Assembly: GCA_964436855.1 (NCBI GenBank)
Contig: CAYTED010000006.1
Location: forward strand, 19,681 to 83,680
Reading direction: 5' to 3'
Source: an uncultured Bdellovibrionales bacterium
Lineage (GTDB): Bacteria; Patescibacteriota; Minisyncoccia; Moranbacterales; UBA1568
Length of the DNA stretch: 64,000 bases
Below, piece after piece: positions 23,653 to 48,531 of the stretch (the stretch's first letter is position 1; every line of letters begins with the position of its first letter). Made by a program: the position numbers and the translations under genes. The notes beneath the pieces were generated by a model. The model ran no database searches, was not told the DNA's origin, and worked only from the letters and a program-made list of their open reading frames with translations.

Positions 23653-23866
23653 GTTGTTAGGATTTTGGCTTAGGAAGGGCTGACTTGACAAGATCAGGAT
23701 GGAGGATTTGCAGAAAATATGGTTTTGTGGTATAAAGGAAATAGCAATGAGGAAGGAGGGAGTCGCTTGAACAAGCGGTCTTCTCCTCTCGTTCTCTTAC
23801 AACTGAATTCCGCGCTTCGGCGGAGTTACGCCGAAAGGCGGGTAGAGCCCTTGAGTGGGCGAGGAG

Positions 23867-24406
23867 ATGGAAATGAAACGGGTTATCATCGCACTCGCGG
23901 CGATCGCCGCGTTTCTCGGATTCGGCTTTGGTCCCTCTGTGGATTGCGGCAACTGCAAGGTCGCGGGCGTACCAACGATCGCGACGATCGGTTTCGTCGC
24001 TCCGGCGATGGCGGCGCAGCCGGTGCCGAAGGAGCTTAGTGTTCCGAAGTTCTGTGAGAAGGTGGAGTTCACGTGGCTCGTTCAGTATGATATCTCTCCA
24101 ATGAAAAGAGCGGGCATATCCAACGGGAAACAAGTAGTTGACATCGGTTGGGGAGATAGGGTTCCCGGAAGCCAAGATGAACGTGAGGGGTATCTCAAGA
24201 GAAAAACAACAGGAAAGGGTTTCTGGGCCATTGAGGTTGATACCAGTGTTTCTTACTCGGTTATTTCCGTTACGGCACGAACCCTCGATGGAAGAGGCAT
24301 GCCGCTCTGGACTGCGGAATGGACCAAGTGGAAGAAGGAAACAGGTTTCGTGGTTGAATCGGTTTACGGATCGGGCGAGAGAAAAGAGGTGTGCTGGCGC
24401 AAATGA
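23867..24406 (+). CDS. secreted hypothetical protein (GC-rich)
   Basis: Signal peptide MEMKRVIIALAAIAAFLGFGFG. GC content noticeably above the flanking DNA. Confidence 0.5.
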   Translation: MEMKRVIIALAAIAAFLGFGFGPSVDCGNCKVAGVPTIATIGFVAPAMAAQPVPKELSVPKFCEKVEFTWLVQYDISPMKRAGISNGKQVVDIGWGDRVPGSQDEREGYLKRKTTGKGFWAIEVDTSVSYSVISVTARTLDGRGMPLWTAEWTKWKKETGFVVESVYGSGERKEVCWRK

Positions 24407-24491: not shown

Positions 24492-26546
24492 ATGTCTTCG
24501 CAAAAGAAAAAGATATTTTTTTCTTCATTTTTGGCGCTTCTCATAGCGTTCAGCTTTTTCTTTTTTTCAGAAAAATCTTTTGCGCAAGAAAAGATTAGCA
24601 AAGAAGTACGGGGTGCAGCTGCAACTGAGGCAGCAAAAAATCAGACAAATGCATCCACACCATCAGGAAAGTCGAATCCGGCGCCATCCGGCGGAAGGGA
24701 AATTGGTGGGGACGGCTGTTCCTTAGTAAATCTTCCCTGTATAGCTTTCCAGGTGATTTTATATGGTTTGTTGAAGTTCTGTGTCTTGCTCGCGAGTCTT
24801 GCCGGCTATCTTTTCTCGCTCGTGATCGACGTCCCGCTCTTTAAGTCTCTTATGACCAATCCGGTCGTTTACGAGATCTGGAAGCTCGTCAGGGATTTCT
24901 TTAATATTTTCTTTATCCTCGTTCTTCTTCTTGCGGCATTTGCGACGATTTTTCAGGTGGACAAATACAGCGTGAAGGGTGGAGCGCTCAAAAAAATCGT
25001 CCTTGCGGCGCTCTTTATCAATTTCAGTTATCCGATCGCGCTTGCGATTATCGACTTCGGGAATGTAATGCTCTATTCATTGGTGAATGACGTGTTTGGT
25101 GTGAAGGACGCTTCTGGAGATGTTCTTGGTGTGTCCGGAATTGCGGATATCTTTTTCCCAAAGGGCTTCGATCGATCGGTTGGTTTTGGTACCTATTTTC
25201 TGTCTATTGTGTGTATGTTCCTTTTTGCGACTTCATTTCTCACGCTTTCGGTACTCATGCTTGTGCGGCTGGTGATGCTTCCTATTCTTGTAATGTTCTC
25301 GCCAGTCGGGTTTGCGGCATCGGCATTTCCCGGGATGGGAAAATTTTCGAGCGACTGGTGGAATATGCTTATTAAGTACACGTTCTATGGGCCGATTGCG
25401 ATGTTTATGATTCTTATCGCGCTCAAGTTTCTTCAAACATTTGAAGGATTAAAAAAATCCGGTGTTGGTGTGGGTGGCGCCTTCTATACGAGTAGCACGG
25501 GATTTTTGAGTACGCTTGTATACTTCACTATCCCCATTATTTTTATGTGGATTGCGATTACGACGGCGGAGAAATTAAGTTCGCAAACAGCTGGTTTCGC
25601 GGGAGATTGGGGGAAAAAAGCAAGACAGAAATTGCAGGCATGGGGGAAGAAGGGCGGGATGGGGGCTTTGGGTTGGACTGGTCGAACTATTGGTGTTACG
25701 GGAACATATGAGAATGCGAAAGCCGGAATGAAAAATTGGTGGGATAGGGATGGTTTTGTTGCAAAAAGAACCGCTCGATTGCGACAAGGTGGTTTTAATG
25801 CGTATCGTGCCAAGCAGGAGGAGTTGAAAAAATATGATGATGAGGTAAATAAGCAGAGATCAGAGGATCTTGGCAAACCTGGGAAAAATGCGGCTCGCGA
25901 TGAGATGGATAAAAAAGATAAAGAACTTATCGCCAAGGGCGGTGAAGTTGGCAAGGTTGCGCAGAAACGATACAACGATCGGAAACGAACGGCAAATAAC
26001 GAGGATATCAAGAAGAAAAAGGAAGAGCTGGAAAATTCCGGAATGTCCAATGATGCAGGCGCGCTTTTGACGAGAATGAATGAGATTGACGCAAAAGGCG
26101 TCACAGCGACCAAGGAAGAACAAATAGAGCGTGCCGCACTTGCCTCACACCTTATAAAAGCGAAGGCAGGAATGTCCAGAGATGCGCAAGAGGAGTTTTT
26201 GGAAAAGCACTCAAGTGTTAATGCCATGGTGAATAAGGAATACAAAGATATTTTTGGCGATCGTCCGGACCCGAGTCTTCCGGGTGGTACGGAGAAAGCG
26301 AAAGAATATGATAGAAAAAAGCAGGAGTATGAAGATTTGCGCAATAAAGCAAAGGCCGCTCGGGCGAGGCTACAGAGTCCAAATCCAATGAGTGTCTATA
26401 CCGGGAGTAAGGAAGATCGGGATAAGAAGATGAAATCTGATCGGGTTGCGATCGAACAATTCCTTTCTTATAAAACAAAGACTGGTATTCAAGGGGGAAG
26501 TGATTTTGACACCGATACCACTAATTTCAGTTCTTCTACGCCATAA
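24492..26546 (+). CDS. polytopic membrane protein, VirB6/TrbL-like (type IV secretion channel component candidate)
   Basis: Signal peptide, Cys-containing N-domain (GDGCSLVNLPC), at least 6 TM helices, then a ~330-aa Lys/Glu/Asp-rich C-terminal tail. Same strand and neighbourhood as virB3/virB4-like genes. Confidence 0.45.
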   Translation: MSSQKKKIFFSSFLALLIAFSFFFFSEKSFAQEKISKEVRGAAATEAAKNQTNASTPSGKSNPAPSGGREIGGDGCSLVNLPCIAFQVILYGLLKFCVLLASLAGYLFSLVIDVPLFKSLMTNPVVYEIWKLVRDFFNIFFILVLLLAAFATIFQVDKYSVKGGALKKIVLAALFINFSYPIALAIIDFGNVMLYSLVNDVFGVKDASGDVLGVSGIADIFFPKGFDRSVGFGTYFLSIVCMFLFATSFLTLSVLMLVRLVMLPILVMFSPVGFAASAFPGMGKFSSDWWNMLIKYTFYGPIAMFMILIALKFLQTFEGLKKSGVGVGGAFYTSSTGFLSTLVYFTIPIIFMWIAITTAEKLSSQTAGFAGDWGKKARQKLQAWGKKGGMGALGWTGRTIGVTGTYENAKAGMKNWWDRDGFVAKRTARLRQGGFNAYRAKQEELKKYDDEVNKQRSEDLGKPGKNAARDEMDKKDKELIAKGGEVGKVAQKRYNDRKRTANNEDIKKKKEELENSGMSNDAGALLTRMNEIDAKGVTATKEEQIERAALASHLIKAKAGMSRDAQEEFLEKHSSVNAMVNKEYKDIFGDRPDPSLPGGTEKAKEYDRKKQEYEDLRNKAKAARARLQSPNPMSVYTGSKEDRDKKMKSDRVAIEQFLSYKTKTGIQGGSDFDTDTTNFSSSTP

Positions 26547-26555
26547 AAAAAGTTT

Positions 26556-26954
26556 ATGAGGCTTTTAATTACAGAGGAAACAGCTGTTTTTGAACGATAT
26601 GTTACTCCGCATCTGAAAAATTTAGGGGACAGCCTTGGTGTACGAAAAACGGCGTACGAGGTTTTCGTACGAAAACCGGAGGATATTCTTTTGATAAGTG
26701 GAACCGAGCTTGCGTTCGGGGCGACGGTCGCGGGGCTGACAGAGGCGATGGCGGAAGTTTTGCTTCGGCATGGGACACGGTCGCAGAAAGAAGGTCTAGC
26801 GGATTTTCTTTCGGATGAGGAAGCGTTGAATGAAGCGATGAAAGTGGCGGAAGATATGGATGATGATGAGGAAGCGCGCGGATCAACCAAACATCGGGAG
26901 CGTGTGGCGCGAGTGATACGGTATTTGAGGGATAATGAAATGGTGATCCATTGA
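26556..26954 (+). CDS. hypothetical acidic protein
   Basis: 132-aa ORF following the VirB6-like gene; no recognisable domain. Confidence 0.4.
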   Translation: MRLLITEETAVFERYVTPHLKNLGDSLGVRKTAYEVFVRKPEDILLISGTELAFGATVAGLTEAMAEVLLRHGTRSQKEGLADFLSDEEALNEAMKVAEDMDDDEEARGSTKHRERVARVIRYLRDNEMVIH

Positions 26955-27072
26955 GTCCCAACACTTCAGTGCCGTTCGGCCTCCAACGAGGCCTCACTGA
27001 AGTTGAATCCGAAACTTTTTCAGAAAAAAGACCGTGCTTTCGGATTCAAATTCGCCCCAAAGTGTTGGAACT
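26953..27072. repeat. nested-palindrome intergenic element, copy 1 (shares a central hairpin with 48371-48518)
   Basis: Outer inverted repeat cccaacactt/aagtgttggaa; inner cttcagtg..cactgaag; core hairpin ttgaatccgaaa...aaagaccgtgcttt..tttcggattcaa; then attcgcccc. Confidence 0.55.
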
Positions 27073-27108
27073 CAATGGTATAGAGAGTAAGGGGTAAGGG
27101 AAAACAAA

Positions 27109-27149
27109 CCCCTCCTCAATCCTCCCCTTGGAAAGGGGAGGAGGGAAGG
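27109..27149 (+). repeat. polypyrimidine/polypurine hairpin repeat (CCCCTCCTCAATCCTCCCC-loop-GGGGAGGAGGG), copy a
   Basis: aacccctcctcaatcctcccc is identical at 27109, 48891 and 53123, with a variant at 30109. Inner stem CCTCCCC/GGGGAGG. Confidence 0.7.
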
Positions 27150-27186
27150 CTAGATCCCGGATCAGTGTCCGGGATGACAATGGAGA

Positions 27187-28932
27187 GTGAGTCGGGATGA
27201 TAGGAATACACAAAGAAAAAAAGCAATGGATTTTCAGACACACAATAACAATATTCGCGGGGTGAGTTTCTCGAATCCTTCAGAAGGAGGGCATGAGGAT
27301 GACGATCTTGTCTTTGATCCGCAGGAAGAGCGGAAGCGAATCGCAGAGGGAACGGAGGAATACCTCGGCGAGCTTCGCCGCGAGTGGGCGACGCGAAACG
27401 CGGGAAAACAATTGTTTCCGGAAAGTGTGGTGCGATTGAGTGAGCCGCTCCGGAACTGGATGCTGTCGATTGATCGGACGAGTTTTTACGATCGTCTTGC
27501 TGCGGAAACGAAACTTTCCTTCGAAGATCGAATCGGTCTCGCGAAAGCGGGATGGGAAATCGCCCTTGGTTCGAATTGGGGAGATCTGACACCGATTCTT
27601 TCCAAGTATATCCAATTGAATCCGTCGGCAATTTCTTTGCTTACGAACAAATTTTCAACGGAATTTCTTCCGAAAGCGAAAGAACTTTCGATACAGCAAG
27701 GGAAGCCTTCCATGCCGAGTGCATTTTCGGCATCGGTTCCGGAACAAAAATCTTTTGAACAACTCTCTTTGCTTCAAGCGTTGGGGAAATATCAGAATCT
27801 TGGGAATCAGCAGATAACGGGGTCGAAGATCGCGATTAAGGGGCAAAACGATCCGGTACGTCCGACGATTTTCAATTGGCTGAAAGCGTATCGTGATGAA
27901 CTCGGCGTGGGCAGGCACGATGCGGTCGTACGGGGAAATTTTCTCTTTCATTCGATCAATGGGAAGGGGCTCTCGGCGGAGGAGCGCGAGCGGCTCGGTA
28001 TGATCTTGAAGTCGCTTGATGAAAATGTGCCGGTGTCGGTGGACCCCGGGAAGCAGGAGATTGTGTTTCAAGAGGTGAGACCCGCCCACATTCCTTCAGA
28101 AAGTGTAGTGGGCAGGAGTGAGAGGCGAGAGGTGAGGAATGAGAAAGAAGATGCAGGCGTGACAAAGCCGGCATTTGCGATGCTCGCGCATCATCCGGAG
28201 GCGGCGTCTTATGAATCAAGAGCGAGGAATCAAGAGTTTAGAAATGAAAGAACAGATCAAAACATAAACAACACACGTCAAATAACCGAGCCGCCGAAAA
28301 TGTCGGAACAAATCGAGCTCGGGAAGCTTGCCGTGGTTCCCGGCGGATCGATGGTAAAAGAGGTTTCGGAGCCGGCCCCGGCTTCGGTGCCGCGTCGTGT
28401 GTCGTTTGAGCCGGCGAAAATCGAGAAGTTTGAATTTGGCACGAGTTCGGTTTCGGGTGGCGAGGCGAATCCGGTTTTTTCTGAATCAATTGAGCGATTT
28501 GGTGAAATCGAAAATACAATACCGCTTGCGACGCAGAATCCGAAGGTGGCGGAGTTTTTCAAGGCATCCCCAAAACATTCGAATCCTTCATCTCAAGAAG
28601 TTGGAGAATCGTCCTTGGAGAGAAGCGCTACAAGAGACGGAGAGATGAACAATGTGGGATCGGTGGTGTTTACGACAAAGCACGTTCTTCCGGCGGAAAA
28701 AGAAGCCGCGCTTGAAGCGAAAAAATCGGAAGAAAAACCGAAAGCCACTCCCAATACTCCGCTTTCAAAACCGGCATTCGATATTCCGAAGGTTGCCCCG
28801 AAACCAAAGCCGTCCGCACCGGCGCAACCGGTATATAATCCGGCGTATCGTATTCGCCCGATGTCGCATATGCATAAACAAGAAGAGGAGAAAGAGAATC
28901 TTCCTCCGAACGTAGTGAATTTGAAGGAGTGA
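27187..28932 (+). CDS. large hypothetical protein (acidic, low-complexity C-terminus), T4SS-locus associated
   Basis: 581-aa ORF with GTG start and a GGAGA SD. No recognisable domain; Pro/Lys/Ala-rich C-terminal region. Confidence 0.5.
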   Translation: MSRDDRNTQRKKAMDFQTHNNNIRGVSFSNPSEGGHEDDDLVFDPQEERKRIAEGTEEYLGELRREWATRNAGKQLFPESVVRLSEPLRNWMLSIDRTSFYDRLAAETKLSFEDRIGLAKAGWEIALGSNWGDLTPILSKYIQLNPSAISLLTNKFSTEFLPKAKELSIQQGKPSMPSAFSASVPEQKSFEQLSLLQALGKYQNLGNQQITGSKIAIKGQNDPVRPTIFNWLKAYRDELGVGRHDAVVRGNFLFHSINGKGLSAEERERLGMILKSLDENVPVSVDPGKQEIVFQEVRPAHIPSESVVGRSERREVRNEKEDAGVTKPAFAMLAHHPEAASYESRARNQEFRNERTDQNINNTRQITEPPKMSEQIELGKLAVVPGGSMVKEVSEPAPASVPRRVSFEPAKIEKFEFGTSSVSGGEANPVFSESIERFGEIENTIPLATQNPKVAEFFKASPKHSNPSSQEVGESSLERSATRDGEMNNVGSVVFTTKHVLPAEKEAALEAKKSEEKPKATPNTPLSKPAFDIPKVAPKPKPSAPAQPVYNPAYRIRPMSHMHKQEEEKENLPPNVVNLKE

Positions 28933-28953
28933 TTGTGTGGTAGAATAAAAAAT

Positions 28954-29349
28954 ATGATGTTCAATGTTCCACAATATATTGATATCGAAGACAAAATTGC
29001 CGGGCCGTTTACGGCGAAGCAACTCGGCTGGCTTTTTGCCGGTGGCGGGGCGTTGCTTGTTCTTTATTCGCTCTTTGATACCGCGACGCTTGCGGTAACG
29101 GGACTTCCGGTGCTTCTTTTGTCGCTCGCGCTCGCGTTTTATAAGCCGAACGGCGTTCCGTTTTCAAAGTTCCTCGTGCATGCGCTTCTCTATGTTTTTC
29201 GTCCGAAAATCGCGGTGTGGGAGCGTCCGGTGCGACAGGCGAATACATTGAAAATTTTTCCGGAACAGAAAAAGGAGGAAGTAAAAGAACAAAAGCATGT
29301 GACCGTAGCGGAAATTAGCGAAATTGCGAGAATGATTGACCAAAAATAG
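28954..29349 (+). CDS. VirB3/PrgI-like small membrane protein
   Basis: ~130 aa with two adjacent TM helices and the N-terminal motif VPQYIDIEDKIAGPFTAKQLGWL, immediately upstream of virB4-like genes. Confidence 0.45.
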   Translation: MMFNVPQYIDIEDKIAGPFTAKQLGWLFAGGGALLVLYSLFDTATLAVTGLPVLLLSLALAFYKPNGVPFSKFLVHALLYVFRPKIAVWERPVRQANTLKIFPEQKKEEVKEQKHVTVAEISEIARMIDQK

Positions 29350-29374
29350 TGACAAGTGACAAGGAATGTAAAGT

Positions 29375-30073
29375 ATGGAATTTCTGACAAAATCAAAAAA
29401 AGCGGAAGGATCGGGTCGGGCGAGTACCCAGCAATATATCGATGTCGAGCAGGTGCGCGATGGCGCGATCGTACTTCGGAATGGGTCGCTTCGCGCGGTT
29501 TTGCTTGTGTCGTCTGTGAACTTCGATCTCAAATCAAGCGAGGAACAAGACGCGACGATTATGCAGTATCAGAATTTCTTGAACTCGCTTGATTTTCCGG
29601 TGCAGATCGTGATTCAGTCGCGGCGGTTTAATGTGGAACCGTACCTCGCGCTTTTGCGGGACAAGGAAGCACAACAGGAAAACGAACTGCTTCGGTTTCA
29701 AATTTCCGAATACAAGTCCTTTATCGAAGGACTTGTGGAAGATCAGAATATTATCTCGAAGTTTTTCTATGTGGTCGTGCCGTTTTATCCGACCGAATCG
29801 CAATCGGAGGGGTTTGTGCAGAGGATCGGAGCGATGTTTAAGCCAAAGGAAACAATACTTGCCGATGAGAAGGTGTTCGAGGCGTACCGGAATCAACTCT
29901 ATCAACGCGTAAATCACGTGATGGCGGCGCTTGGAGCGACCGGCGTTCGACTCGCGGTGCTCGACACGGAAGATCTGATAGAGCTTCTCTACAATGCGTA
30001 TAACCCGTCACTTTTCACATCGGATGTGATTAAGGATTTGAGTCAGATAGAGTTGTCGGAAAAAGTACGGTAG
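29375..30073 (+). CDS. VirB4-like ATPase, N-terminal segment (split gene product)
   Basis: Matches the N-terminal region of Gram-positive-type VirB4/TcpF/PrgJ proteins (YIDVEQVRDGAIVLRNGSLRAVLLVSSVNFDLKSSEEQDATIMQYQNFLNSLDFPVQIV). Ends 88 bp before the main virB4 ORF, in a different frame. Confidence 0.55.
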   Translation: MEFLTKSKKAEGSGRASTQQYIDVEQVRDGAIVLRNGSLRAVLLVSSVNFDLKSSEEQDATIMQYQNFLNSLDFPVQIVIQSRRFNVEPYLALLRDKEAQQENELLRFQISEYKSFIEGLVEDQNIISKFFYVVVPFYPTESQSEGFVQRIGAMFKPKETILADEKVFEAYRNQLYQRVNHVMAALGATGVRLAVLDTEDLIELLYNAYNPSLFTSDVIKDLSQIELSEKVR

Positions 30074-30081
30074 GAAGAAGA

Positions 30082-30106
30082 GGTAACAGATAACAGATAA
30101 CAAAGG
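30082..30106. promoter_or_regulatory. tandem TAACAGATAA motif
   Basis: ggTAACAGATAACAGATAAcaaagg. The same 10-mer recurs at 32024, 49448 and 57369. Confidence 0.45.
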
Positions 30107-30108
30107 AA

Positions 30109-30149
30109 CCCCTCCCCGATCCTCCCCTTGAAAAGGGAAGGAGGGGAGG
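30109..30149 (+). repeat. polypyrimidine/polypurine hairpin repeat, copy b (3' arm is the virB4 Shine-Dalgarno)
   Basis: cccctccccgatcctcccc-ttgaaaa-gggaaggaggggagg; the GGAGG lies 9-13 nt upstream of the ATG at 30162. Confidence 0.7.
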
Positions 30150-30161
30150 TAAAGAAGAAGT

Positions 30162-32006
30162 ATGGAGTTGCCGTTTTTGGGAAAAAAGAATATCGCGGGG
30201 AACGGAATGGGAGCGCAAGATGCGGTTCCGATGGCGGCGTTGCGCGAAGAAGCGAATCTTTATCAGCGCGGACTTGCGTCGATGAAAGATCTGATTGCGC
30301 CGCCCGCGGTAAAAGTAACGTCGAATTCGATGCAAGTCGGGGCAACAATCACTCGAACGATGTTTGTGGTGGCGTACCCGCGATATTTGTCTACGAATTG
30401 GTTTTCCCCAATCGTGAATTTGGATTTTCCGATGGATGTCACGCTCTTTGTGCACCCGATCGATACCGGAGAGATTTTGAAACAGCTTCGGAAGTCGGCA
30501 ACGCAAGTGGAATCGCAAATCGAGATCGAACAGGAGGGTGGGAAAATTCGCGACCCCGTGCTCGAGACGGCGATGCAAGATATCGACGCGCTTCGAGACC
30601 GGCTTTTGCAGGGAACGGAAAAATTTTTCCGATTCGGGTTGTATCTCACGCTTTTTTCGGAAGATGAGACGAAATTGAACGAGATGAGTCAGACGATCGA
30701 ATCGCTTCTTGAGGCGCAACTCGTATATGTGAAGCCGGCCGTACTTCGGATGGATGAGGGGTTCGCCTCGACGCGCCCCTTGGCGACCGACAATCTTGAT
30801 GTCGCGAATAACCTTAATACCGGACCGCTTTCAACCACGTTTCCGTTTGTGTCGTCGGATCTTTCGTCGAATACAGGGATTCTCTACGGTATCAATCGAC
30901 ACAACAATTCGCTCATTCTTTTTGATCGGTTCAAGATGGAAAACGCGAATATGGTGGTGTTCGCAAAATCCGGCGCCGGAAAAAGTTATACCGTGAAACT
31001 TGAAGTATTGCGGACGATGATGATGGGGACGAGCGTGATTATTATCGATCCGGAAAACGAGTACAAGCATCTTGCCGAAACGGTCGGAGGATCGTTTCTT
31101 AAGATCTCGCTGAATTCGGAAGTACACTTGAATCCGTTTGATTTGCCGAAGATTGCCGAATCGGACGATCCGGAAGGCGTGTTTCGGAATACAATCGCAA
31201 GTCTTGTCGGACTTTTGCACCTGATGCTTGGGACGGTTACGCCGGAAGAGGATTCGATTCTTGACCGGGCGATTCGCGAGACTTACGCGATCCGCGATAT
31301 CAGCGAGCGAGCGGACTTCAAGTCGCTTGACGCTGGGTCGTTCCCGACAATGTCGGACCTCTATGCGGTGCTGAAAAATATGGAAGGAGCGGAATCGCTC
31401 GCGGCACGGCTCGAGCGGTATACCGAGGGGATTTTTGCCGGCTTTCTCAATCATCAGACGAATATTACGACGGAAAATCAGCTGGTTGTTTTTAACATTC
31501 GAGATCTCGAAGACGAGCTTCGGCCGATCGCGATGTATATTATTCTCCAGTATATTTGGAATGAAATGCGATCGAATATGAGGCAGCGGATTGTTGTCGT
31601 GGATGAAGCGTGGGTAATGATGCAACACGAAGATGCAGCCGCGTTTCTTTTTGGTGTCGCGAAGCGTTGTCGGAAATATTTTACCGGCCTCACAACGATT
31701 ACGCAGGATATTTCCGATTTTATGGCGTCGCGATTCGGGAAGCCGATCGTTACGAATTCCTCGATGCAGCTTCTTCTCAAACAGTCGCCGTCGTCGATTG
31801 ATGTGATCGCGGAAACGTTTTATCTCACCGATCACGAGAAGTTTCTCTTGCTCGAATCGAATGTGGGCGAGGGGATTTTCTTCGCGGGGACGAAACATGT
31901 TGCGATTAAGGTGATCGCTTCGTACAGCGAGGATCAGATTATTACGACCGATCCGCGGCAGCTCCTCGAAATCGAAGAGGCGAAGAAGGAGTTTGAGGGG
32001 AAGTGA
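30162..32006 (+). CDS. VirB4/TrbE/CagE-family type IV secretion ATPase (main segment)
   Basis: CagE_TrbE_VirB-region motif (TMFVVAYPRYLSTNWFSPIV), Walker A VVFAKSGAGKSYTV, Walker B RIVVVDEAWVMM, 614 aa. Confidence 0.85.
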   Translation: MELPFLGKKNIAGNGMGAQDAVPMAALREEANLYQRGLASMKDLIAPPAVKVTSNSMQVGATITRTMFVVAYPRYLSTNWFSPIVNLDFPMDVTLFVHPIDTGEILKQLRKSATQVESQIEIEQEGGKIRDPVLETAMQDIDALRDRLLQGTEKFFRFGLYLTLFSEDETKLNEMSQTIESLLEAQLVYVKPAVLRMDEGFASTRPLATDNLDVANNLNTGPLSTTFPFVSSDLSSNTGILYGINRHNNSLILFDRFKMENANMVVFAKSGAGKSYTVKLEVLRTMMMGTSVIIIDPENEYKHLAETVGGSFLKISLNSEVHLNPFDLPKIAESDDPEGVFRNTIASLVGLLHLMLGTVTPEEDSILDRAIRETYAIRDISERADFKSLDAGSFPTMSDLYAVLKNMEGAESLAARLERYTEGIFAGFLNHQTNITTENQLVVFNIRDLEDELRPIAMYIILQYIWNEMRSNMRQRIVVVDEAWVMMQHEDAAAFLFGVAKRCRKYFTGLTTITQDISDFMASRFGKPIVTNSSMQLLLKQSPSSIDVIAETFYLTDHEKFLLLESNVGEGIFFAGTKHVAIKVIASYSEDQIITTDPRQLLEIEEAKKEFEGK

Positions 32007-32046
32007 GGCAGAGAAAGATGATTGATAACAGATAATACTATTTTGT

Positions 32047-32598
32047 ATGCCGGTACCGATTGTTGCGGCGGTTGGAGGAGCAGCGGTGCGAGGAGTCGCC
32101 TCTGGTGGCGCGCGTTCGACGATTCGCGGAACTGCTCGGAATGCTCGTCGAAAATATATTGAAGCGACGGAACAGGCGTTTTTGTTTGAGCAGGGTGAGG
32201 CGGAGATACGGAAACATCATACATCGCTTCTTCTATATGCACCCGCATTTATGGTCGCTGGTTTTAAGGATATGATGGATTTGGTTGGTATCGGATCGCT
32301 TCCGGGCATCGGAACGATTGTGACTCTTTGTTGCTCGATACTGATTTTTCTTCTTTTGTTTATCACGCGGACGAATAAATCTCTCATTCAATCGCGATTT
32401 TTGATTCGAGCCGGACTGATTCTTATTTTCGCGACTCTCGTCGAAGGACTTGCGTTGGGCCTTAATTTTCTCCCCATAGAGATAATGACGATCTATGCGA
32501 TTTATTGGCTTGACAAGCACGAAGGATCAAAGGCCGCGCAGGCGATTCAAGGGACGCTTTCTTTGGTAGCTCGTTCCGGAAAGTTTGGAAGAGAGTAA
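32047..32598 (+). CDS. membrane hypothetical protein
   Basis: 183 aa with 3-4 TM helices and a Gly/Ala/Arg-rich N-terminus. A TAACAGATAA motif sits immediately upstream. Confidence 0.45.
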   Translation: MPVPIVAAVGGAAVRGVASGGARSTIRGTARNARRKYIEATEQAFLFEQGEAEIRKHHTSLLLYAPAFMVAGFKDMMDLVGIGSLPGIGTIVTLCCSILIFLLLFITRTNKSLIQSRFLIRAGLILIFATLVEGLALGLNFLPIEIMTIYAIYWLDKHEGSKAAQAIQGTLSLVARSGKFGRE

Positions 32599-33277
32599 TA
32601 TATTTGAATTTATGAATACTATTGTTGTACGTGAAATGTTTTCGGATCGAAAATTCCTTGTAACCGGAGGAGTGATAATCTCAATTCTTCTTCTGTATGC
32701 GTTTTTTCCGGAATCGGTCGGACTCGCGCCGGTTCTTCAGGGCATTATTGCGCTCTTTCTTTTCTTTTTCCTCTTTCCGGTTCTCTATTGTAAAATAATA
32801 CTGAAGGAACCGATCTTTACGCTCGGATTTCGGTTTCCGGAGGGGGTGGCCGGTTGGTTTTTTGTTCTTTTTGCGGTCGTTCTTGGTATCGGAGGAGCTT
32901 TTCTCTTGAAGATATTTTTTCCGGAAGCAATGTCCGACGCGGCGATTCCCGATACGGTCAGAAAATCGTTTGGATCGTTCCTTCGGTTCGAACTTTTTTC
33001 GATCGTTATTCTCTTCTTGTATGAAGTGTTTTTCCGCGGGTTCGTAATGCTTTCGTGGCTTTCTCGATTTGGTCGGGGATCGGTGGTATTGCAGTGGGTC
33101 GTGTTTATGTTGTTTCTTGCAACCACGGGAACATTCGGGTGGGATCAGGCGCGGATGATTCTTTTTGCGCCGCTTGCCGGGTGGATCGCGCTTTCGACTC
33201 GATCAATCGGCTTCTCGTTTCTTGCGGCGACTCTTTTTTTTCTCATCACCGATATTATTATTCTTTTTTCCCGATAA
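32585..33277 (+). CDS. CPBP-family (CAAX protease/Abi-like) intramembrane protein, tentative
   Basis: Multi-TM protein with an EExxxR-like motif (LYEVFFRGFV). Confidence 0.35.
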   Translation: MEESNIFEFMNTIVVREMFSDRKFLVTGGVIISILLLYAFFPESVGLAPVLQGIIALFLFFFLFPVLYCKIILKEPIFTLGFRFPEGVAGWFFVLFAVVLGIGGAFLLKIFFPEAMSDAAIPDTVRKSFGSFLRFELFSIVILFLYEVFFRGFVMLSWLSRFGRGSVVLQWVVFMLFLATTGTFGWDQARMILFAPLAGWIALSTRSIGFSFLAATLFFLITDIIILFSR

Positions 33278-33280
33278 TAT

Positions 33281-36031
33281 ATGAATCAAAAAAACAAAAA
33301 ATTTTTGAGAAGTACGCTCGCGGTCGTTTCCGCGTTTGCGGTTATCCTCCAAGTGTCTTTTCCGGTCGCGTTTGCGCGTGGGATAAAAATCCCCTCGCCG
33401 TCGGAAGTCGCCGCCGAACTCGAGCAACGCTATAATCTGAATCTCGGGAGTATTCAGACACAGTCGCAACAATTCAATGTCGCCAATCAGAAAAAGACAA
33501 CTCCGGAAGTTTCGCTTTTTTTCTCTCCGTCCGATCCGAAGCCGGGGCAGAAAGTATCCGCCGCGGCGCTTCCGGCATTTTTTTCGAATGAGAAAAGCGA
33601 TCTTTATTTTACCTGGTATTTGAAACGGAAAGACTGTGATCTGACGAATAGTCCGAGCGCGGAAGAGCGTCTTCGTTGCGATGCCGATAATAATGGGAAA
33701 ATTACGGTTAACGATTGGAAGGTGGAAGCCGCTCGCATTGTCGCGCTGAACGGATATGACAATGGCGACGCGGATTATTCTCCGGCAAACGGAGACAGCG
33801 ACTCCGACGGATACAAGGCTCTTTTCGGTGGTGATAACAAACCCGGATCCCCGGATCGATGCGCGGTGTATGATTCCGGGTCGGGGGATATTTACGAGAT
33901 CGGCAAGGGAGGAAATACGAATATCGATATCTGTCCCGCCGGAACAACTCCCGCTTGTATGATTGCTCGGGAAGAGGTGAGCGGCGGAGATTTTTCTTCC
34001 GGATCAGGATCGGCGTTTTCGGTTGCGGATACGACGGTGTGCGATTTTGCCGGGTATCCGTATTGCTCTACAACGACCACCACCTGTCGAACGGGAAGTT
34101 TGAAATGCGTTTCCGATCCGTATGCGGGAAGTTGCGGCTCGGATCCGTCGACAACCACATGTAGCGTAACGACATCGTCTTCTTTCACCTCCAAGTGCCG
34201 ACACCTTTTTGCGAGTTCCGGAACGGGTCAAACAGGAGATGGCAATTTTAAAAATGAGGAAGAAGAATTTTGGCGCACCGATCCCAAGGATCCCGGGACG
34301 GCGAACAATGGCAATAAGGATGAGGCGAATATCGTCGGACTCGGTCGGGATACGTTTTCGTGGACCTATGACGCCGGCGACAAGGTAGGGGTTTCGGTGG
34401 AGGGTACCTCTATGATCACCACAAAGCACGATGATTCTTCCGCGTATATTATGTGGGCGTTTTCGAAAAACAAGTGTCCGATTGCGGAAGCGGACGACAC
34501 GGGCGGATATGTGAAAAATATTCGCGGGTTCAATGTAACATTTCCCACGGCGGATATTGATTTGAATAAATGTCTCGAGATGAATTTAGTCGATCCTGCG
34601 GAAGGGGGGCAGCCGGGACAAATCTCGGTCGATGTTTCCGCTACGCCGGATCGTCCGGTGAATGATGAAACGGGAAATCTTTCGGGCGATATCGTGCTCG
34701 CGCTCGCTTCCCTTTCCAATTCTTCGAAAACACCGGGAGAAATTTTGTTCGAGTGGAGAGTGAGTCTCGCGAATAATATTCAATTCGACAATAGTGGATC
34801 CGGTCGACGATCGACCGATATCACGGATGAATTGAAGGAAGAAGGCTTGCTTCGGAATGTTCGCGGGAACGGACTTTCGCAGCTTTCACTCCCGATGAAT
34901 CTTCCGAAGTCATTCAAATCCGGCTTGCGGCTTTCGGATTATCTTGATTCCAGTAAGACCGGGTATATCCGGTTCTCTCTGCTTGCTTCCGAAAATTTCG
35001 ATTCCGGTCCGACGCGAAAAGGGCGCGGTGAAGCGATTCTCAAATTTCAGAATGTCGGAGACCGGATCAATGCCTATGCGCCAACCGTATCCGGAAATCC
35101 CGCCAAGCTTTCTTTTACTACCGGAAAAAACGGAACGGAAATTTGTAACGAAAATCTTTTTTCCGAATCGGTGTGCAAGGTAATGAAAAATGAGATTATC
35201 GGACTTACGGTCGGGACGAGCGGATTCGACCGGTTTCATTGGACGGTGAACGGAAAACCGCTTGGGTGCTCGTCTGTATTATCGGCGCGATGTAAAGATG
35301 ATGAAGAGACCGATACGGTATTTTTGCCGATAATCGGCAATGTCGGTGAAACATATACGATATCGGTTGATGCGACAAATATTGTGTCCGGGGCGGCGGC
35401 AACCCTGTCTCGATCGTTTCGCATTGTCGATCCGGATGTTGAAATATTGTCTCTCGATACCAATTCGGCGTGGAGGCGTTTACTTGGGCAGTACAAGGAT
35501 TTGGACGGAAAACTTTATGATGATGTGAGTCGGACAAGTTTTCAGGCGTTTGGAGGAGGCGAGGTTCGACTGAAACCGGAATTTTCTCCCGGCTTTTTAC
35601 AGAAACTTTCGCAGCGCGAATGGAGGGTTGACGGGCAGGTGGTTGCGGAGAATTCCGACGGCGAGCTCTCCTTTATCGTTGAAAAGCCGGCCGGATCGAC
35701 CTACGATGTGGAGCTTTCCGCTCTTTACAATCAATCGACGGAGATTCGGAAAATATTGCGGGACTTTTTCAATATTTCCGTGTTTGATTCGGATGATGTG
35801 AGATTCTCAAAGACGATTCAGGTGGAAGTTGTCGAAAGCGAGGATTCGGTTGCGAGTGCTAAGAAGGGTATTTTCGGCAATCAGACCGGACTCGCGGCAA
35901 TCGCAAGTTATCTTCCATCCTCGATTCTTTTCTCGTTAAAGGTGATACTCTCGGGATTTCTTATTCTCGTTATCGCGTCGTTCGCTCTTTCGATTCAACC
36001 GAGTGTTCCGATACGCCGCTCGGAGGAGTAA
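33281..36031 (+). CDS. giant Cys-rich surface protein with signal peptide and C-terminal TM anchor
   Basis: 916 aa with signal peptide (AVVSAFAVILQVSFPVAFA), many Cys/Asp/Gly/Thr-rich segments, and a C-terminal hydrophobic anchor (ILSGFLILVIASFALSI). Confidence 0.55.
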   Translation: MNQKNKKFLRSTLAVVSAFAVILQVSFPVAFARGIKIPSPSEVAAELEQRYNLNLGSIQTQSQQFNVANQKKTTPEVSLFFSPSDPKPGQKVSAAALPAFFSNEKSDLYFTWYLKRKDCDLTNSPSAEERLRCDADNNGKITVNDWKVEAARIVALNGYDNGDADYSPANGDSDSDGYKALFGGDNKPGSPDRCAVYDSGSGDIYEIGKGGNTNIDICPAGTTPACMIAREEVSGGDFSSGSGSAFSVADTTVCDFAGYPYCSTTTTTCRTGSLKCVSDPYAGSCGSDPSTTTCSVTTSSSFTSKCRHLFASSGTGQTGDGNFKNEEEEFWRTDPKDPGTANNGNKDEANIVGLGRDTFSWTYDAGDKVGVSVEGTSMITTKHDDSSAYIMWAFSKNKCPIAEADDTGGYVKNIRGFNVTFPTADIDLNKCLEMNLVDPAEGGQPGQISVDVSATPDRPVNDETGNLSGDIVLALASLSNSSKTPGEILFEWRVSLANNIQFDNSGSGRRSTDITDELKEEGLLRNVRGNGLSQLSLPMNLPKSFKSGLRLSDYLDSSKTGYIRFSLLASENFDSGPTRKGRGEAILKFQNVGDRINAYAPTVSGNPAKLSFTTGKNGTEICNENLFSESVCKVMKNEIIGLTVGTSGFDRFHWTVNGKPLGCSSVLSARCKDDEETDTVFLPIIGNVGETYTISVDATNIVSGAAATLSRSFRIVDPDVEILSLDTNSAWRRLLGQYKDLDGKLYDDVSRTSFQAFGGGEVRLKPEFSPGFLQKLSQREWRVDGQVVAENSDGELSFIVEKPAGSTYDVELSALYNQSTEIRKILRDFFNISVFDSDDVRFSKTIQVEVVESEDSVASAKKGIFGNQTGLAAIASYLPSSILFSLKVILSGFLILVIASFALSIQPSVPIRRSEE

Positions 36032-47315: not shown

Positions 47316-48371
47316 ATGCGGGTGAGTTTTCAAAAACTTTTTTTCGTGATCGGAAGTTCTCTTTTTGTATGGATGCAACCGACATCGGTCGGGGCGGCGC
47401 TTGTGCCGTGCGGCATCGGGGATGGTCCGGCGTGTACGCTCTGTCATATTATTGTCGGTGGCAAGGGTTTGATCGACTGGGGAATGAGCATTATGGTGAT
47501 CGTCGGGATCGCGCTTATTACGATTGCCGGTATTCGGTATGTCGTTTCGATCGGTCGATCGGGCGAAATGGGCGCCGCGAAGGGGATGATCGGGAAAACG
47601 CTCGGCGGGATCGCGCTTCTCCTGACGGGATGGTTGATTGTGAATGTAATCATTACCGTTCTTGCAAACGACAATCTCGGTATCGGCATTCAAAAAGAAA
47701 ACTGGTACAAGTTTTCGTGTGATGCGAAATCGGCGATAGAAGCGTCGGCGGAAGGGGCGATTCTTTCTCGCGGGAGTGATTCAAAACAAATCGCTTGTGA
47801 AAATGCCGATACGATGAAATCACGGCTTTCGAGCGGGGGCGGGGTATGCGTCGGGGTATGCCAGAGGAATGCATGCAGTTTTTCCGGTCCGGTCGATATC
47901 GCGATCCGCGAAGCAAAACTCCCGAATGGTATTTCGAGAAACCTTCTTGCCGCGGTGATCTGCCAAGAATCAAGCGGTCGAGCGTCGGCAACCAACACCA
48001 GAGGCTCTTTTACGAGTTGTGGACTGATGCAGGTAAATTCAAACGAGGTCGGCAATACGACCTGTACCGACAAGGTGAATTTGTTTGATCCGAAAATAAA
48101 TATCGAAAAGGGACTGGAAATTCTTTCCAAAAAATTCTCGAGTGTCAGCGCCGAGAAATATAAGACTGTCTCGAAAACGAACCAGGCGCTCGCGGCGTAC
48201 AATTGTTGCGGAAATGGCGAGAATCCGAATACCGAAAGCGTGAGTTGCAAGGCAAATGACGGGTGGGAATCGGTTCCAAGATGGGCGTGTCCGATTGATC
48301 CCGGTGGAATGTGTGTTGTCCGGGAGTATGCGTGCGATGTGGCGCTGTGTGAAGGACAGTATTCATATTAA
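47316..48371 (+). CDS. fusion of a TrbC/VirB2-like pilin module and a lytic transglycosylase (SLT/VirB1-like) domain
   Basis: N-terminal signal plus Cys motif (LVPCGIGDGPACTLC) and a two-TM pilin-like hairpin, then an SLT domain with catalytic-Glu motif AVICQESSG and GLMQV. Confidence 0.6.
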   Translation: MRVSFQKLFFVIGSSLFVWMQPTSVGAALVPCGIGDGPACTLCHIIVGGKGLIDWGMSIMVIVGIALITIAGIRYVVSIGRSGEMGAAKGMIGKTLGGIALLLTGWLIVNVIITVLANDNLGIGIQKENWYKFSCDAKSAIEASAEGAILSRGSDSKQIACENADTMKSRLSSGGGVCVGVCQRNACSFSGPVDIAIREAKLPNGISRNLLAAVICQESSGRASATNTRGSFTSCGLMQVNSNEVGNTTCTDKVNLFDPKINIEKGLEILSKKFSSVSAEKYKTVSKTNQALAAYNCCGNGENPNTESVSCKANDGWESVPRWACPIDPGGMCVVREYACDVALCEGQYSY

Positions 48372-48518: not shown

Positions 48519-48531
48519 AGGATTCAGTGAT

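What the first reader, a model, noticed from the sequence alone, without database searches (positions are those of the whole stretch)
24492..36031. Type IV secretion or pilus-like locus with VirB4 split into two ORFs and an SD-sequestering hairpin repeat at the split junction
The same-strand cluster is VirB6/TrbL-like polytopic protein, two unknowns, VirB3/PrgI-like, VirB4 N-terminal segment (29375-30073), VirB4 main segment (30162-32006), two membrane proteins, and a 916-aa Cys-rich surface protein. The canonical N-terminal region of Gram-positive-type VirB4 (FLNSLDFP...) is in a separate 232-aa ORF. The 88-bp gap before the main ORF is filled by a TAACAGATAACAGATAA tandem motif and the CCTCCCC/GGGGAGG hairpin, whose purine arm is the main ORF's Shine-Dalgarno. 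This suggests either an ancient natural split with translational control or insertion of a small repeat element into virB4. No VirD4, VirB11 or relaxase lies within the window, which fits a DNA-uptake or cell-contact apparatus more than a conjugation system.
Basis: partly seen in the sequence, partly recalled or inferred. Interest (0 to 1): 0.6.

Follow-up and report, generated by a model that had tools for sequence, protein, structure and literature searches.

The report
Patescibacterial T4SS locus; repeat in TrsD–VirB4 gap
This is an ordinary chromosomal type IV secretion locus of an ultrasmall (Patescibacteria/Moranbacteria) bacterium whose "split VirB4" is the already described two-gene TrsD + VirB4 arrangement, and the hairpin between the two genes is one copy of a small dispersed repeat that also turns up in very different bacteria and even inside protein-coding genes.

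Summary
All ORFs, the 88-nt gap, the ACAGATA tandem and the CCTCCCC/GGGGAGG hairpin lie where stated.

**The split.** It is not a lesion or a novelty. The 232-aa ORF is the stand-alone TrsD/"TraC-like" homologue of the VirB4 N-terminal domain.
- 148 of the 150 best 50%-identity cluster representatives are stand-alone. The two fused relatives are tiled by the two window ORFs.
- PrgI–TrsD–VirB4 order is kept in all 14 patescibacterial loci with upstream sequence (L014 included).
- Quiñonero-Coronel et al. 2025 (PMC12102498) already describe this system, including missing relaxase/T4CP and VirB2-like pilins. Four pilin genes plus an SLT gene sit 11 kb downstream here.

**The hairpin.** It is not a conserved SD-sequestering device.
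- Distant relatives have 1–36-nt or overlapping junctions without an SD.
- The closest clade carries different hairpin repeats at the junction.
- 24 of 28 window genes lack an SD.

It is one of four same-strand copies of a dispersed element, CCCCTCCT-CAA-TCCTCCCC + loop + GGGGAGGA. The exact 19-mer has ≥120 metagenome hits (GC 0.32–0.71). Four are in-frame insertions in UvrB, TruA and a MiaB-like gene. That element is the only possibly new item.

The parts
22421..23551 (+). LysM + CHAP peptidoglycan hydrolase (VirB1-like role).
   Evidence: Pfam CHAP 1.4e-19 and LysM 4e-19. Gene call in L030.
23855..24406 (+). 183-aa protein with two TM-like segments. No family.
24492..26546 (+). VirB6/TrbL-like polytopic membrane protein (684 aa).
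   Evidence: 8 TM-like segments. Precomputed PF19590 TrbL_3, but no hit in my own Pfam scan. Conserved position in relatives.
26556..26954 (+). 132-aa soluble protein of unknown family. It is conserved in some relatives.
27109..27149 (+). Copy 1 of the dispersed pyrimidine-pyrimidine-purine hairpin element, between the 132-aa and 581-aa genes.
27187..28932 (+). 581-aa protein of unknown family, conserved just upstream of PrgI in relatives. The start codon is uncertain.
28954..29349 (+). PrgI/VirB3-like small membrane protein.
   Evidence: Pfam PrgI 2.9e-11, 44.2 bits against a cut-off of 27. Gene call of 131 aa.
29375..30073 (+). TrsD-like / 'TraC-like' protein (232 aa): a stand-alone homologue of the VirB4 N-terminal domain.
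   Evidence: NCBIfam partial hits to the N-terminal parts of VirB4 models and to TrsD. PF26593. Tiles fused relatives. Foldseek top hits are all TrwK/VirB4. 2820 homologues, and 148 of 150 cluster representatives are stand-alone.
30074..30161 (+). 88-nt trsD-virB4 junction, essentially filled by copy 2 of the element. It comprises a purine-rich 5' part with the (ACAGATA)2.4 tandem at 30084-30100, the 19-mer CCCCTCCCCGATCCTCCCC at 30109-30127, a loop, and the purine arm ending at 30149 (GGAGG 12 nt before the ATG).
30162..32006 (+). VirB4 ATPase (614 aa: linker plus middle and C-terminal ATPase domains).
   Evidence: NCBIfam CD1110 family 1.1e-109, above the cut-off. Pfam P-loop_TraG 1.6e-28. 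PDB 4AG5 3.8e-51.
32047..32598 (+). 183-aa membrane protein, conserved downstream of virB4.
32612..33277 (+). 221-aa polytopic membrane protein (6 TM-like segments).
33281..36031 (+). 916-aa secreted or anchored protein with 18 Cys, a signal-like N-terminus and C-terminal TM segments. It is conserved in relatives (25-54% identity).
47316..48371 (+). SLT lytic transglycosylase heading the pilin cluster.
   Evidence: Pfam SLT 3.8e-15. SLT-pilins-PrgI-TrsD-VirB4 are contiguous in L005, L007 and L009.
48469..50847 (+). Four VirB2-like T4SS pilin genes (48469-48810, 48977-49342, about 49467-50078, 50080-50847).
   Evidence: Pfam T4SS_pilin 1.2e-7, 2.3e-10, 3.1e-7 and 9.3e-18.
48891..48932 (+). Copy 3 of the hairpin element, between pilin genes 1 and 2.
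53123..53158 (+). Copy 4 of the hairpin element, upstream of a TTGACA-17-TATACT promoter-like site before nusA.

Best explanation
**The locus.** It is the chromosomal, non-conjugative, MPF_FATA-related type IV secretion system typical of Patescibacteria, here in a Candidatus Moranbacteria-like genome. The gene order is LysM-CHAP hydrolase, VirB6-like protein, two lineage-specific proteins, PrgI/VirB3, TrsD, VirB4, two membrane proteins and a large surface protein. An SLT gene and four VirB2-like pilin genes lie 11 kb away.

**The 'split'.** The 'split VirB4' is the conserved two-gene TrsD + VirB4 architecture. TrsD carries the VirB4 N-terminal-domain fold as a separate polypeptide. Inferred: it assembles in trans with PrgI/VirB3 and the VirB4 ATPase, as the N-terminal domain does in cis elsewhere.

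**The junction.** Ancestrally the two genes abut or overlap, so translational coupling is inferred. In this lineage the junction was expanded to 88 nt by one copy of a small dispersed hairpin element, CCCCTCCT-CAA-TCCTCCCC, loop, GGGGAGGA(GG). The genome carries at least four same-strand copies of this element. The GGAGG in front of virB4 is part of that repeat. Sequestration of this SD-like motif is a by-product, not a conserved control device. The two genes are most likely still co-transcribed.
For: - **T4SS components.**
- **TrsD is a VirB4 N-terminal-domain homologue.**
  - The NCBIfam matches cover only the N-terminal positions of VirB4 profiles and the TrsD model.
  - Two fused relatives (797 and 898 aa) are tiled by the two ORFs with a linker of about 15 aa.
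  - The AF2 model (pLDDT 67) has 14 of its 15 best PDB hits on TrwK/VirB4 of R388, probability 0.87-0.99.
- **The split is conserved.**
  - The 120 best homologues are 217-246 aa.
  - 148 of the 150 best cluster representatives are stand-alone proteins of 157-443 aa.
  - A VirB4 ORF follows directly in all 29 genome loci.
  - Gene order is conserved.
- **Literature (PMC12102498).**
  - 2,272 homologues were found, most of them next to virB4.
  - Relaxase is absent and T4CP is rarely nearby.
  - The TrsD homologue is essential in Ca. Southlakia epibionticum.
- **Chromosomal context.**
  - IF-2, NusA, trigger factor, the CCA enzyme and tRNAs are in the window.
  - The Xer-like recombinase neighbour is conserved in relatives, and there is no att-like repeat.
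- **The junction is variable.**
  - It is 1-36 nt or overlapping, without an SD, in 11 of 13 distant relatives.
  - It is 113-195 nt and filled with four other hairpin repeats in the closest clade.
- **The repeat is a family.**
  - Four copies lie in the window against 0.08 expected, all on the + strand.
  - The exact 19-mer has at least 120 metagenome hits, about 80% with the hairpin and with covarying loop-proximal pairs.
- **No promoter or terminator consensus lies in the gap**.
Against: - No expression data exist, so co-transcription and trans-assembly are inferences.
- The NCBIfam TrsD score (30.9 bits) is far below that model's cut-off of 200, and my own Pfam scan did not return PF26593. 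The TrsD label therefore rests on precomputed annotation, fused relatives and the fold.
- The structural match is weak (E about 3e-3, TM 0.43, model pLDDT 67).
- The GGAGG does lie 12 nt upstream of the ATG and is fully paired, so an effect on virB4 translation in this strain cannot be excluded.
- I could not see the 16S rRNA 3' end.
- A T4CP or relaxase could lie outside the 64-kb window.
Confidence: 0.82

Rival explanations
1. The hairpin is a purpose-built translational control element. It sequesters the Shine-Dalgarno sequence of virB4, so that VirB4 is made only when the structure is opened, for example by ribosomes finishing trsD, by temperature, or by a factor.
For: GGAGG lies 12 nt upstream of the ATG. 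Its unpaired probability is at most 0.1. It is the only SD-like sequence before virB4.
Against: - It is not conserved. No orthologous junction carries this hairpin or any SD.
- The genome rarely uses an SD: 24 of 28 genes have none.
- The same element occurs at three other places where the purine arm is 25-270 nt from the next start.
- The trsD stop codon is 36 nt upstream of the hairpin, too far for a terminating ribosome to melt it (sequence).
Confidence: 0.08
2. A once-fused virB4 was recently broken by insertion of the repeat (or by a frameshift or assembly error). The two ORFs would then be a pseudogene or a degenerating system.
For: Related elements do insert inside coding regions elsewhere: UvrB, TruA and a MiaB-like gene. 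Rare fused relatives exist.
Against: - The stand-alone 217-246-aa protein is the rule in thousands of relatives that lack this repeat.
- Both ORFs are intact and highly conserved (TrsD 72-75% and VirB4 about 83% identity to the nearest clade).
- The junction is identical in assemblies from two different runs.
Confidence: 0.02
3. The element, and the other hairpin repeats that occupy T4SS intergenic gaps in this clade, act as intra-operon RNA stability or processing signals. They would set different levels of the flanking gene products, like REP sequences in E. coli operons. This is compatible with the best explanation as a secondary effect.
For: Three of the four window copies lie between co-directional T4SS genes, all in the sense orientation. 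Every member of the closest clade has some strongly folding repeat (-21 to -59 kcal/mol) at the trsD-virB4 junction and at the PrgI-trsD junction. There is no T-tract, so it is not a terminator.
Against: The sequences differ completely between close relatives, which fits selfish insertion better than a selected function. More distant relatives manage with 1-36-nt junctions. There are no transcript data.
Confidence: 0.15
4. The cluster belongs to an integrated conjugative element whose relaxase and coupling protein lie outside the window.
For: A tyrosine recombinase gene lies at 21062-21997 and tRNA-Leu at 36093-36177, flanking the cluster. A serine recombinase and a Bro-N gene lie at 4.2-7.5 kb.
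Against: The recombinase is 61-63% identical and syntenic in relatives. There is no att-like repeat. GC content and skew are uniform across the cluster. The system is near-universal and chromosomal in Patescibacteria, and relaxases are rare there (PMC12102498).
Confidence: 0.04

Closest known systems
Patescibacteria T4SS (MPF_FATA-related), as catalogued by Quiñonero-Coronel et al. 2025 (PMC12102498) and shown to be essential in Ca. Southlakia epibionticum (Wang et al. 2023, cited there)
   Same: The component set matches: VirB4, TrsD next to virB4, PrgI/VirB3, VirB6, cell-wall hydrolases and multiple VirB2-like pilins. It is chromosomal, and no relaxase or T4CP lies nearby.
   Different: Nothing essential differs. 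Here the pilin/SLT genes are 11 kb from virB4, whereas they are contiguous in L005, L007 and L009. The trsD-virB4 junction carries a repeat insertion.
TrsD + TrsE of staphylococcal plasmids pGO1/pSK41 (MPF_FATA subclass; Guglielmini et al. 2014, as cited in PMC12102498)
   Same: A small protein homologous to the VirB4 N-terminal region is encoded as a separate gene next to the VirB4 ATPase. NCBIfam TrsD/TraD hit 2.2e-7.
   Different: Those plasmids are conjugative and have a relaxase and T4CP. Sequence similarity is low (30.9 bits, far below the model cut-off).
Full-length VirB4 (TrwK of R388, PDB 7O41/8RTB; CD1110-family VirB4 of Clostridioides ICEs)
   Same: The two window ORFs together cover the N-terminal and ATPase domains.
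   Different: It is one polypeptide there and two here. About 55 residues at the junction (the tail of TrsD and the head of VirB4) have no counterpart.
REP/BIME elements and Rickettsia palindromic elements (RPE) – for the hairpin repeat only
   Same: It is short (about 40-90 nt), hairpin-forming and dispersed. It is mostly intergenic, sometimes lies within operons, and, like RPEs, occurs as in-frame insertions in housekeeping genes.
   Different: - No GTAG-type REP head was seen, and no RAYT or other transposase recurs nearby.
- The loop varies while a 19-nt pyrimidine mirror repeat is kept.
- The exact 19-mer is shared by genomes of 32-71% GC, including diderms. REPs and RPEs are lineage-specific.

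Membership tests
Patescibacteria / MPF_FATA-type T4SS | VirB4-family ATPase | tested here: met
   NCBIfam CD1110 family 367.8 bits against a cut-off of 325. Pfam P-loop_TraG 100 bits. PDB 4AG5 3.8e-51.
Patescibacteria / MPF_FATA-type T4SS | PrgI/VirB3 encoded next to virB4 | tested here: met
   Pfam PrgI 44.2 bits against a cut-off of 27. The gene lies immediately upstream of trsD.
Patescibacteria / MPF_FATA-type T4SS | TrsD homologue adjacent to virB4 | tested here: inconclusive
   The NCBIfam TrsD hit is 2.2e-7 but only 30.9 bits against a cut-off of 200. Precomputed PF26593 'TraC-like' is on record, but my Pfam scan did not reproduce it. Position and homologue set agree with the published description (PMC12102498).
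Patescibacteria / MPF_FATA-type T4SS | VirB6-like polytopic channel protein | tested here: inconclusive
   8 TM-like segments and a precomputed TrbL_3 hit. My own Pfam and NCBIfam scans gave no hit.
Patescibacteria / MPF_FATA-type T4SS | Cell-wall hydrolase (VirB1 role) | tested here: met
   LysM + CHAP at 22421-23551, and SLT at 47316-48371.
Patescibacteria / MPF_FATA-type T4SS | VirB2-like pilins (the patescibacterial peculiarity) | tested here: met
   Four ORFs match PF18895 T4SS_pilin above the cut-off.
Conjugative T4SS (ICE or plasmid) | Relaxase and VirD4-type coupling protein with the MPF genes | tested here: not met
   No such domain was found in any ORF of 280 aa or more in the 64-kb window. 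Regions outside the window were not visible.
VirB4 N-terminal domain (for the 232-aa ORF) | Collinear with the N-terminus of full-length VirB4 and followed by the ATPase part | tested here: met
   N residues 16-212 map to P0268 6-210, and main-ORF residues 37-609 map to P0268 226-796. The same holds for P0214. The profile positions are complementary.
VirB4 N-terminal domain (for the 232-aa ORF) | Same fold as a solved VirB4 N-terminal domain | tested here: inconclusive
SD-sequestering riboregulator | Conserved structure at orthologous sites, with an SD used by the organism | tested here: not met
   It is absent from all related junctions. 24 of 28 genes have no SD.
Intrinsic terminator | GC-rich stem followed by a T-tract | tested here: not met
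   The consensus scan found no terminator-like site in 30074-30161. The stem is followed by TAAAGAAG.
REP / RAYT system (hairpin element) | Associated RAYT (Y1 transposase) gene and a conserved 5' GT[AG]G head | tested here: not met
   No protein family recurs within 2 kb of the element in about 120 loci. No GTAG head appears in the alignment. A genome-wide search for a RAYT in trans was not possible.
RPE-like in-frame palindromic insertions (hairpin element) | Copies inserted in frame in conserved protein-coding genes | tested here: met
   Insertions were found in UvrB (L049 19 aa; L121 18 aa), TruA (L092 37 aa) and a MiaB-like gene (L054 about 30 aa), each measured against PDB homologues. 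None of the four window copies is in a gene.

The most novel reading that the evidence does not exclude
The hairpin in the gap belongs to a so far undescribed family of very small mobile elements shared across phyla. These phyla include Patescibacteria and high-GC diderm bacteria.
- **Core.** The core is a pyrimidine mirror repeat, CCCCTCCT-CAA-TCCTCCCC, followed by a variable loop and one purine arm, GGGGAGGA(GG).
- **Pairing.** The purine arm is complementary to both pyrimidine blocks. Two alternative hairpins are therefore possible, or an 8-triplet intramolecular Y·R-Y triple helix.
- **Insertion sites.** The element inserts into intergenic junctions and, in frame, into housekeeping genes (UvrB, TruA, MiaB-like).
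- **Mobilisation.** No linked transposase was found.
Probability: 0.35. Interest if true: 0.65.

Novelty: new member of a known kind. Interest (0 to 1): 0.33.

Why it matters
**The T4SS.** This adds one more instance of a published system. The useful points are modest.
- The VirB3 / VirB4-NTD / VirB4-ATPase module is encoded here as three genes. In most relatives trsD and virB4 are tightly juxtaposed, which supports the idea that TrsD is a stoichiometric partner of VirB4.
- The junction tolerates large repeat insertions.

**The repeat.** If it is really one family, it would be an unusual case.
- An element of about 40 nt keeps an identical 19-nt core across genomes of 32-71% GC.
- It can sit inside essential genes.
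- It may explain some of the protein insertions and assembly breaks typical of Patescibacteria genomes.
- It is also a natural candidate for studying intramolecular triplex or switch-like folding.

Tried and rejected
- **Rfam.** The gathering scan of the whole window found only 4 tRNAs. The permissive scans around copies 1 and 2 gave only chance-level hits (miRNA, CRISPR-DR57, Pab91, rsmX). No known RNA family matches.
- **Literature search by sequence.** The search with 14-mers of the element returned 0 papers. The searches with CCTCCCC/GGGGAGG plus 'repeat' and with RPE/CPR terms returned nothing relevant.
- **DUF559 endonuclease idea.** It was prompted by a neighbour in a Deinococcus plasmid. 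I rejected it because the window has no such ORF and no protein family recurs near the element.
- **Phage carriage.** There are only 3 exact hits in 2.9 million IMG/VR contigs.
- **PDB sequence search with the 232-aa ORF.** Nothing significant was found.
- **Covariance model of the element.** The MAFFT alignment of 89 element copies came out gap-free, so the 3' arms were not in register. I therefore built no covariance model and used my own register-anchored counts instead.
- **ICE hypothesis.** There is no att-like repeat, and the recombinase is syntenic in relatives.
- **Plasmid BLAST with the 40-nt consensus.** It gave only weak, imperfect matches (E 0.04-6) in Deinococcus, Azospirillum and Rhizobium. 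These have a similar architecture but do not prove family membership.
Full report
**1. Observation**

The junction between the 232-aa ORF (29375-30073) and the 614-aa ORF (30162-32006) is 88 nt. The two ORFs are in different frames, and the gap has stops in all three frames.

The gap contains the following features.
- The tandem TAACAGATAACAGATAA lies at 30084-30100.
- Nested inverted repeats CCTCCCC/GGGGAGG form a hairpin over 30111-30149.
- The GGAGG stretch 12 nt before the ATG has an unpaired probability of at most 0.1.
- The sequence is identical in two other assemblies: L030 (100% over 16.8 kb) and L031 (99.98%, another run).

**2. What the locus is**

*Family searches.* They give the following results.
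- PrgI/VirB3 matches 28933-29349.
- A VirB4 ATPase above the NCBIfam cut-off matches 30162-32006 (CD1110 family, profile positions 180-734 of 752). It also has a 3.8e-51 match to the solved VirB4 C-terminal domain 4AG5.
- The 684-aa protein has 8 TM-like segments and a precomputed TrbL_3 hit.
- Eleven kb downstream lie an SLT transglycosylase and four T4SS_pilin (VirB2-like) genes.

*Context.* The surroundings are chromosomal housekeeping genes: IF-2, NusA, trigger factor, the CCA-adding enzyme, RNase Y and four tRNAs. No ORF of 280 aa or more has a VirD4, VirB11 or relaxase domain.

*Organism.* Homologues of the 232-aa ORF that carry a source name are labelled Candidatus Moranbacteria/Moraniibacteriota.

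*Synteny.* The order VirB6 – (132 aa) – 581 aa – PrgI – TrsD – VirB4 – 183 aa – 221 aa – 916 aa is conserved in relatives. So is the alternative SLT – pilins – PrgI – TrsD – VirB4.

*Literature.* This is the system described by Quiñonero-Coronel et al. 2025 (PMC12102498). They describe an MPF_FATA-related T4SS found across Patescibacteria, with these properties.
- It has VirB4, TrsD, PrgI/VirB3, VirB6 and VirB2-like pilins.
- It usually lacks a relaxase, and T4CP is rarely nearby.
- Its genes were found essential for epibiotic growth in Ca. Southlakia epibionticum.

The FEMS review PMC12857230 says the same.

**3. The 'split VirB4'**

The 232-aa ORF matches only the N-terminal positions of VirB4 profiles: CD1110 2-119 and VirB4_plasma 87-233. 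It also matches the TrsD/TraD model at 2.2e-7, well below that model's cut-off.

*Conservation of the stand-alone form.*
- It has 2,820 homologues. The best 120 are all 217-246 aa and carry PF26593 'TraC-like'.
- In the exhaustive search of 50%-identity representatives, 148 of the best 150 are stand-alone proteins of 157-443 aa. Only two are long: P0268 (797 aa) and P0214 (898 aa).

*Tiling.* Those two are fused forms, and the window ORFs tile them. N residues 16-212 map to P0268 6-210, and main-ORF residues 37-609 map to P0268 226-796.

*Fold.* An AlphaFold2 model of the 232-aa protein (pLDDT 67, pTM 0.59) has its 11 best Foldseek PDB hits, and 14 of the best 15, on TrwK/VirB4 chains of the R388 T4SS. 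The probabilities are 0.87-0.99, E is about 3e-3 and TM is about 0.43. This is weak but consistent.

*Adjacency.* In all 29 genome loci recovered with this protein, a VirB4 ORF follows directly. These comprise 14 patescibacterial loci and 15 loci from Clostridia MAGs, where the N-terminal homologue is about 400 aa.

*Conclusion.* The split is ancient, conserved and already named. [quoted passage not shown] A pseudogene or an assembly error is excluded.

**4. The junction and the SD-sequestration idea**

*Distant relatives.* In the more distant relatives (43-63% identity) the trsD stop and the virB4 start are 1-36 nt apart or overlap in 11 of 13 loci. No SD precedes virB4. This suggests translational coupling, which is an inference.

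*Closest clade.* In the closest clade (72-75% identity; L001, L157-L162) the junction is 113-195 nt. It is filled in each lineage by a different, strongly folding repeat (-21 to -59 kcal/mol), again without an SD. None of these loci has the CCTCCCC/GGGGAGG hairpin.

*SD usage in the window.* 24 of 28 surveyed genes have no GGAG/GAGG/AGGA within 25 nt of the start. Many instead have a TATAAT/GATAAT box 5-12 nt upstream of the ATG. This organism therefore seems to rely little on SD pairing.

*Signals in the gap.* No promoter-like or terminator-like site lies there.

*Conclusion.* The hairpin is not a conserved regulatory device of the split. Any masking of the GGAGG in this strain is a side effect of what was inserted there.

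**5. What the hairpin is**

*Copies in the window.* The 19-mer CCCCTCCYCRATCCTCCCC occurs four times (27109, 30109, 48891, 53123). All four are on the + strand and intergenic, against 0.08 expected.
- Each copy is followed by a variable loop and a GGGGAGG-type arm.
- Each is preceded by about 35 nt of purine-rich sequence.
- The ACAGATA tandem is part of that purine-rich segment in the virB4 copy, so the 88-nt gap is essentially one element copy.
- Three copies lie between co-directional T4SS genes.

*Metagenomes.* An exact-match scan returned at least 120 loci (capped).
- Their GC content ranges from 0.32 to 0.71.
- About 80% have the downstream hairpin, with loop-proximal base pairs that differ but stay complementary.
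- Many hits sit at contig ends.

*Structure of the core.* The 19-mer is a pyrimidine mirror repeat, CCCCTCCT-CAA-TCCTCCCC.
- Position 8 (T or C) covaries with the purine-arm base that pairs with T12. The counts are T with A 60, C with G 8, and discordant 4 (Fisher p = 1e-7), although the sequences are not independent.
- The single purine arm is therefore complementary to both pyrimidine blocks.
- This fits either two alternative hairpins or an intramolecular Y·R-Y triplex. I could not tell which.

*Associations.* No protein family recurs near the element. It is almost absent from viral contigs (3 hits). Rfam has no match, and sequence-based literature searches found nothing.

*Host range.*
- Element-bearing loci include genes that Patescibacteria are not expected to carry. 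Examples are a TonB-dependent outer-membrane receptor and the glutamate synthase large subunit.
- One locus, L049, is patescibacterial by its UvrB relatives.

*In-frame insertions.* Four copies are in-frame insertions in conserved proteins, verified against solved homologues.
- UvrB in L049 (19 aa) and in L121 (18 aa). Both lie at the same site but are read in different frames.
- TruA in L092 (37 aa).
- A MiaB-like enzyme in L054 (about 30 aa).

The same UvrB site is hypervariable in 120 patescibacterial homologues, and some inserts look like decayed copies.

*Caveat.* In a database this large some exact 19-mer hits are chance. Those without a hairpin include a RecA coding match.

**6. Comparison and verdict**

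The T4SS and its TrsD + VirB4 arrangement are a new member of a known, recently published kind.

The translational-control reading is not supported. The insertion reading is right only in the sense that a repeat landed in a pre-existing intergenic junction.

The part that may be new is the repeat family itself. It resembles REP elements and, through its in-frame insertions, Rickettsia palindromic elements. It differs from both in three ways.
- It is shared across very different genomes.
- It keeps a 19-nt mirror-repeat core while the loop varies.
- It has no linked transposase.

I rate the overall finding low to moderate, and I flag the repeat as the lead worth following.

Noticed in passing
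window 27109-27149, 30109-30149, 48891-48932, 53123-53158; loci L032-L151: There is a dispersed hairpin element with an invariant 19-nt pyrimidine mirror repeat (CCCCTCCT-CAA-TCCTCCCC), a variable loop and one purine arm. The window has 4 copies. Metagenome contigs of 32-71% GC give at least 120 exact 19-mer hits. Position 8 covaries with the purine arm (p = 1e-7). No Rfam family and no paper were found.
   Followed up: partly
L049:2183-2240, L121 (about 3889-3957, - strand), L092 (about 3454-3520), L054 (about 4635-4703, - strand): The same element occurs as in-frame insertions of 18-37 aa in UvrB (twice, same site, different reading frames), TruA and a MiaB-like radical-SAM enzyme. Each was verified against PDB homologues.
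   Followed up: yes
L001:6897-7091, L157:6279-6398, L160:1283-1463, L161:6700-6812; also the PrgI-trsD gaps of L157, L160 and L161: In the closest relatives the trsD-virB4 and PrgI-trsD junctions hold other long hairpin repeats. Their arms are GATA-type or AT-rich short tandem repeats, and some have GC-rich inner hairpins such as AGCGGACGCACCGC...GCGGAGCGACCGTT. They fold at -21 to -80 kcal/mol. T4SS intergenic gaps in this clade look like repeat insertion hot spots.
   Followed up: partly
window 32024-32035, 49448-49459, 30089-30100; near-matches at 22050, 57367 and 9841: The 12-mer GATAACAGATAA recurs on the + strand: 3 exact and 4 one-mismatch sites against 0.2 expected. At 32024 and 49448 it ends in GATAAT, 7-11 nt before a start codon, so it may be a -10 box of leaderless or short-leader mRNAs.
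   Followed up: partly
window-wide (28 start codons surveyed): 24 of 28 genes lack any SD-like motif within 25 nt of the start. Several have TATAAT/GATAAT 5-12 nt upstream of the ATG (24492, 33281, 53430, 21997 on the - strand).
   Followed up: partly
window 26943-27083: A long imperfect hairpin of about 140 nt (ATTGAGTCCCAACACTT...AAGTGTTGGAACTCAAT, with an inner hairpin) lies directly after the 132-aa gene and before element copy 1. Its only Rfam hit is a chance-level plant miRNA model (29 bits).
   Followed up: no
window 22040-22135: A GATA-type repeat stretch (GATAAAGGATATCAGATAATGGATGATAGAG ... ATTATCCACTAT) lies between the Xer-like recombinase gene and the LysM-CHAP gene. It resembles the junction repeats of L001 and L161.
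   Followed up: no
window 47316-50847: A second T4SS gene group is present: an SLT transglycosylase plus four VirB2-like pilin genes. In L005, L007 and L009 this group is contiguous with PrgI-TrsD-VirB4.
   Followed up: yes
L015-L029 (Clostridia MAGs): Fifteen gut Clostridia loci also encode a separate TrsD-like protein (376-497 aa, 22-29% identity) immediately upstream of a VirB4 ORF. The two-gene layout is therefore not confined to Patescibacteria and pGO1-type plasmids. Neighbouring genes were not examined.
   Followed up: no
proteins P0271-P0390: All 120 best database relatives of the L049 UvrB fragment are C-terminal halves of 318-447 aa, many labelled 'partial'. Some are on contigs of 50-170 kb. 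Either UvrB is often interrupted upstream in Patescibacteria, or gene calling or assembly breaks there.
   Followed up: no
window 4189-7500 and 6000-10000: A large serine recombinase (4189-5706, - strand) and a Bro-N domain protein (6646-7500) lie in a stretch of lower GC (0.39-0.42). A CARDB-domain ORF in a GC 0.54 stretch (10501-12525) follows. This may be a small integrated element.
   Followed up: no
window 21062-21997 (- strand): A tyrosine recombinase (Phage_integrase 7.7e-45) is present. The public gene calls for the identical contig (L030) list two + strand ORFs there instead. Homologues at 61-63% identity lie near the T4SS cluster in L002, L007 and L009, so it is probably the housekeeping Xer recombinase.
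   Followed up: partly
L117:10824-13334 (- strand): A low-GC (0.35) element-bearing contig encodes an 837-aa protein with a weak TraD-type coupling-protein match (4.9e-11) about 500 nt from the element copy.
   Followed up: no
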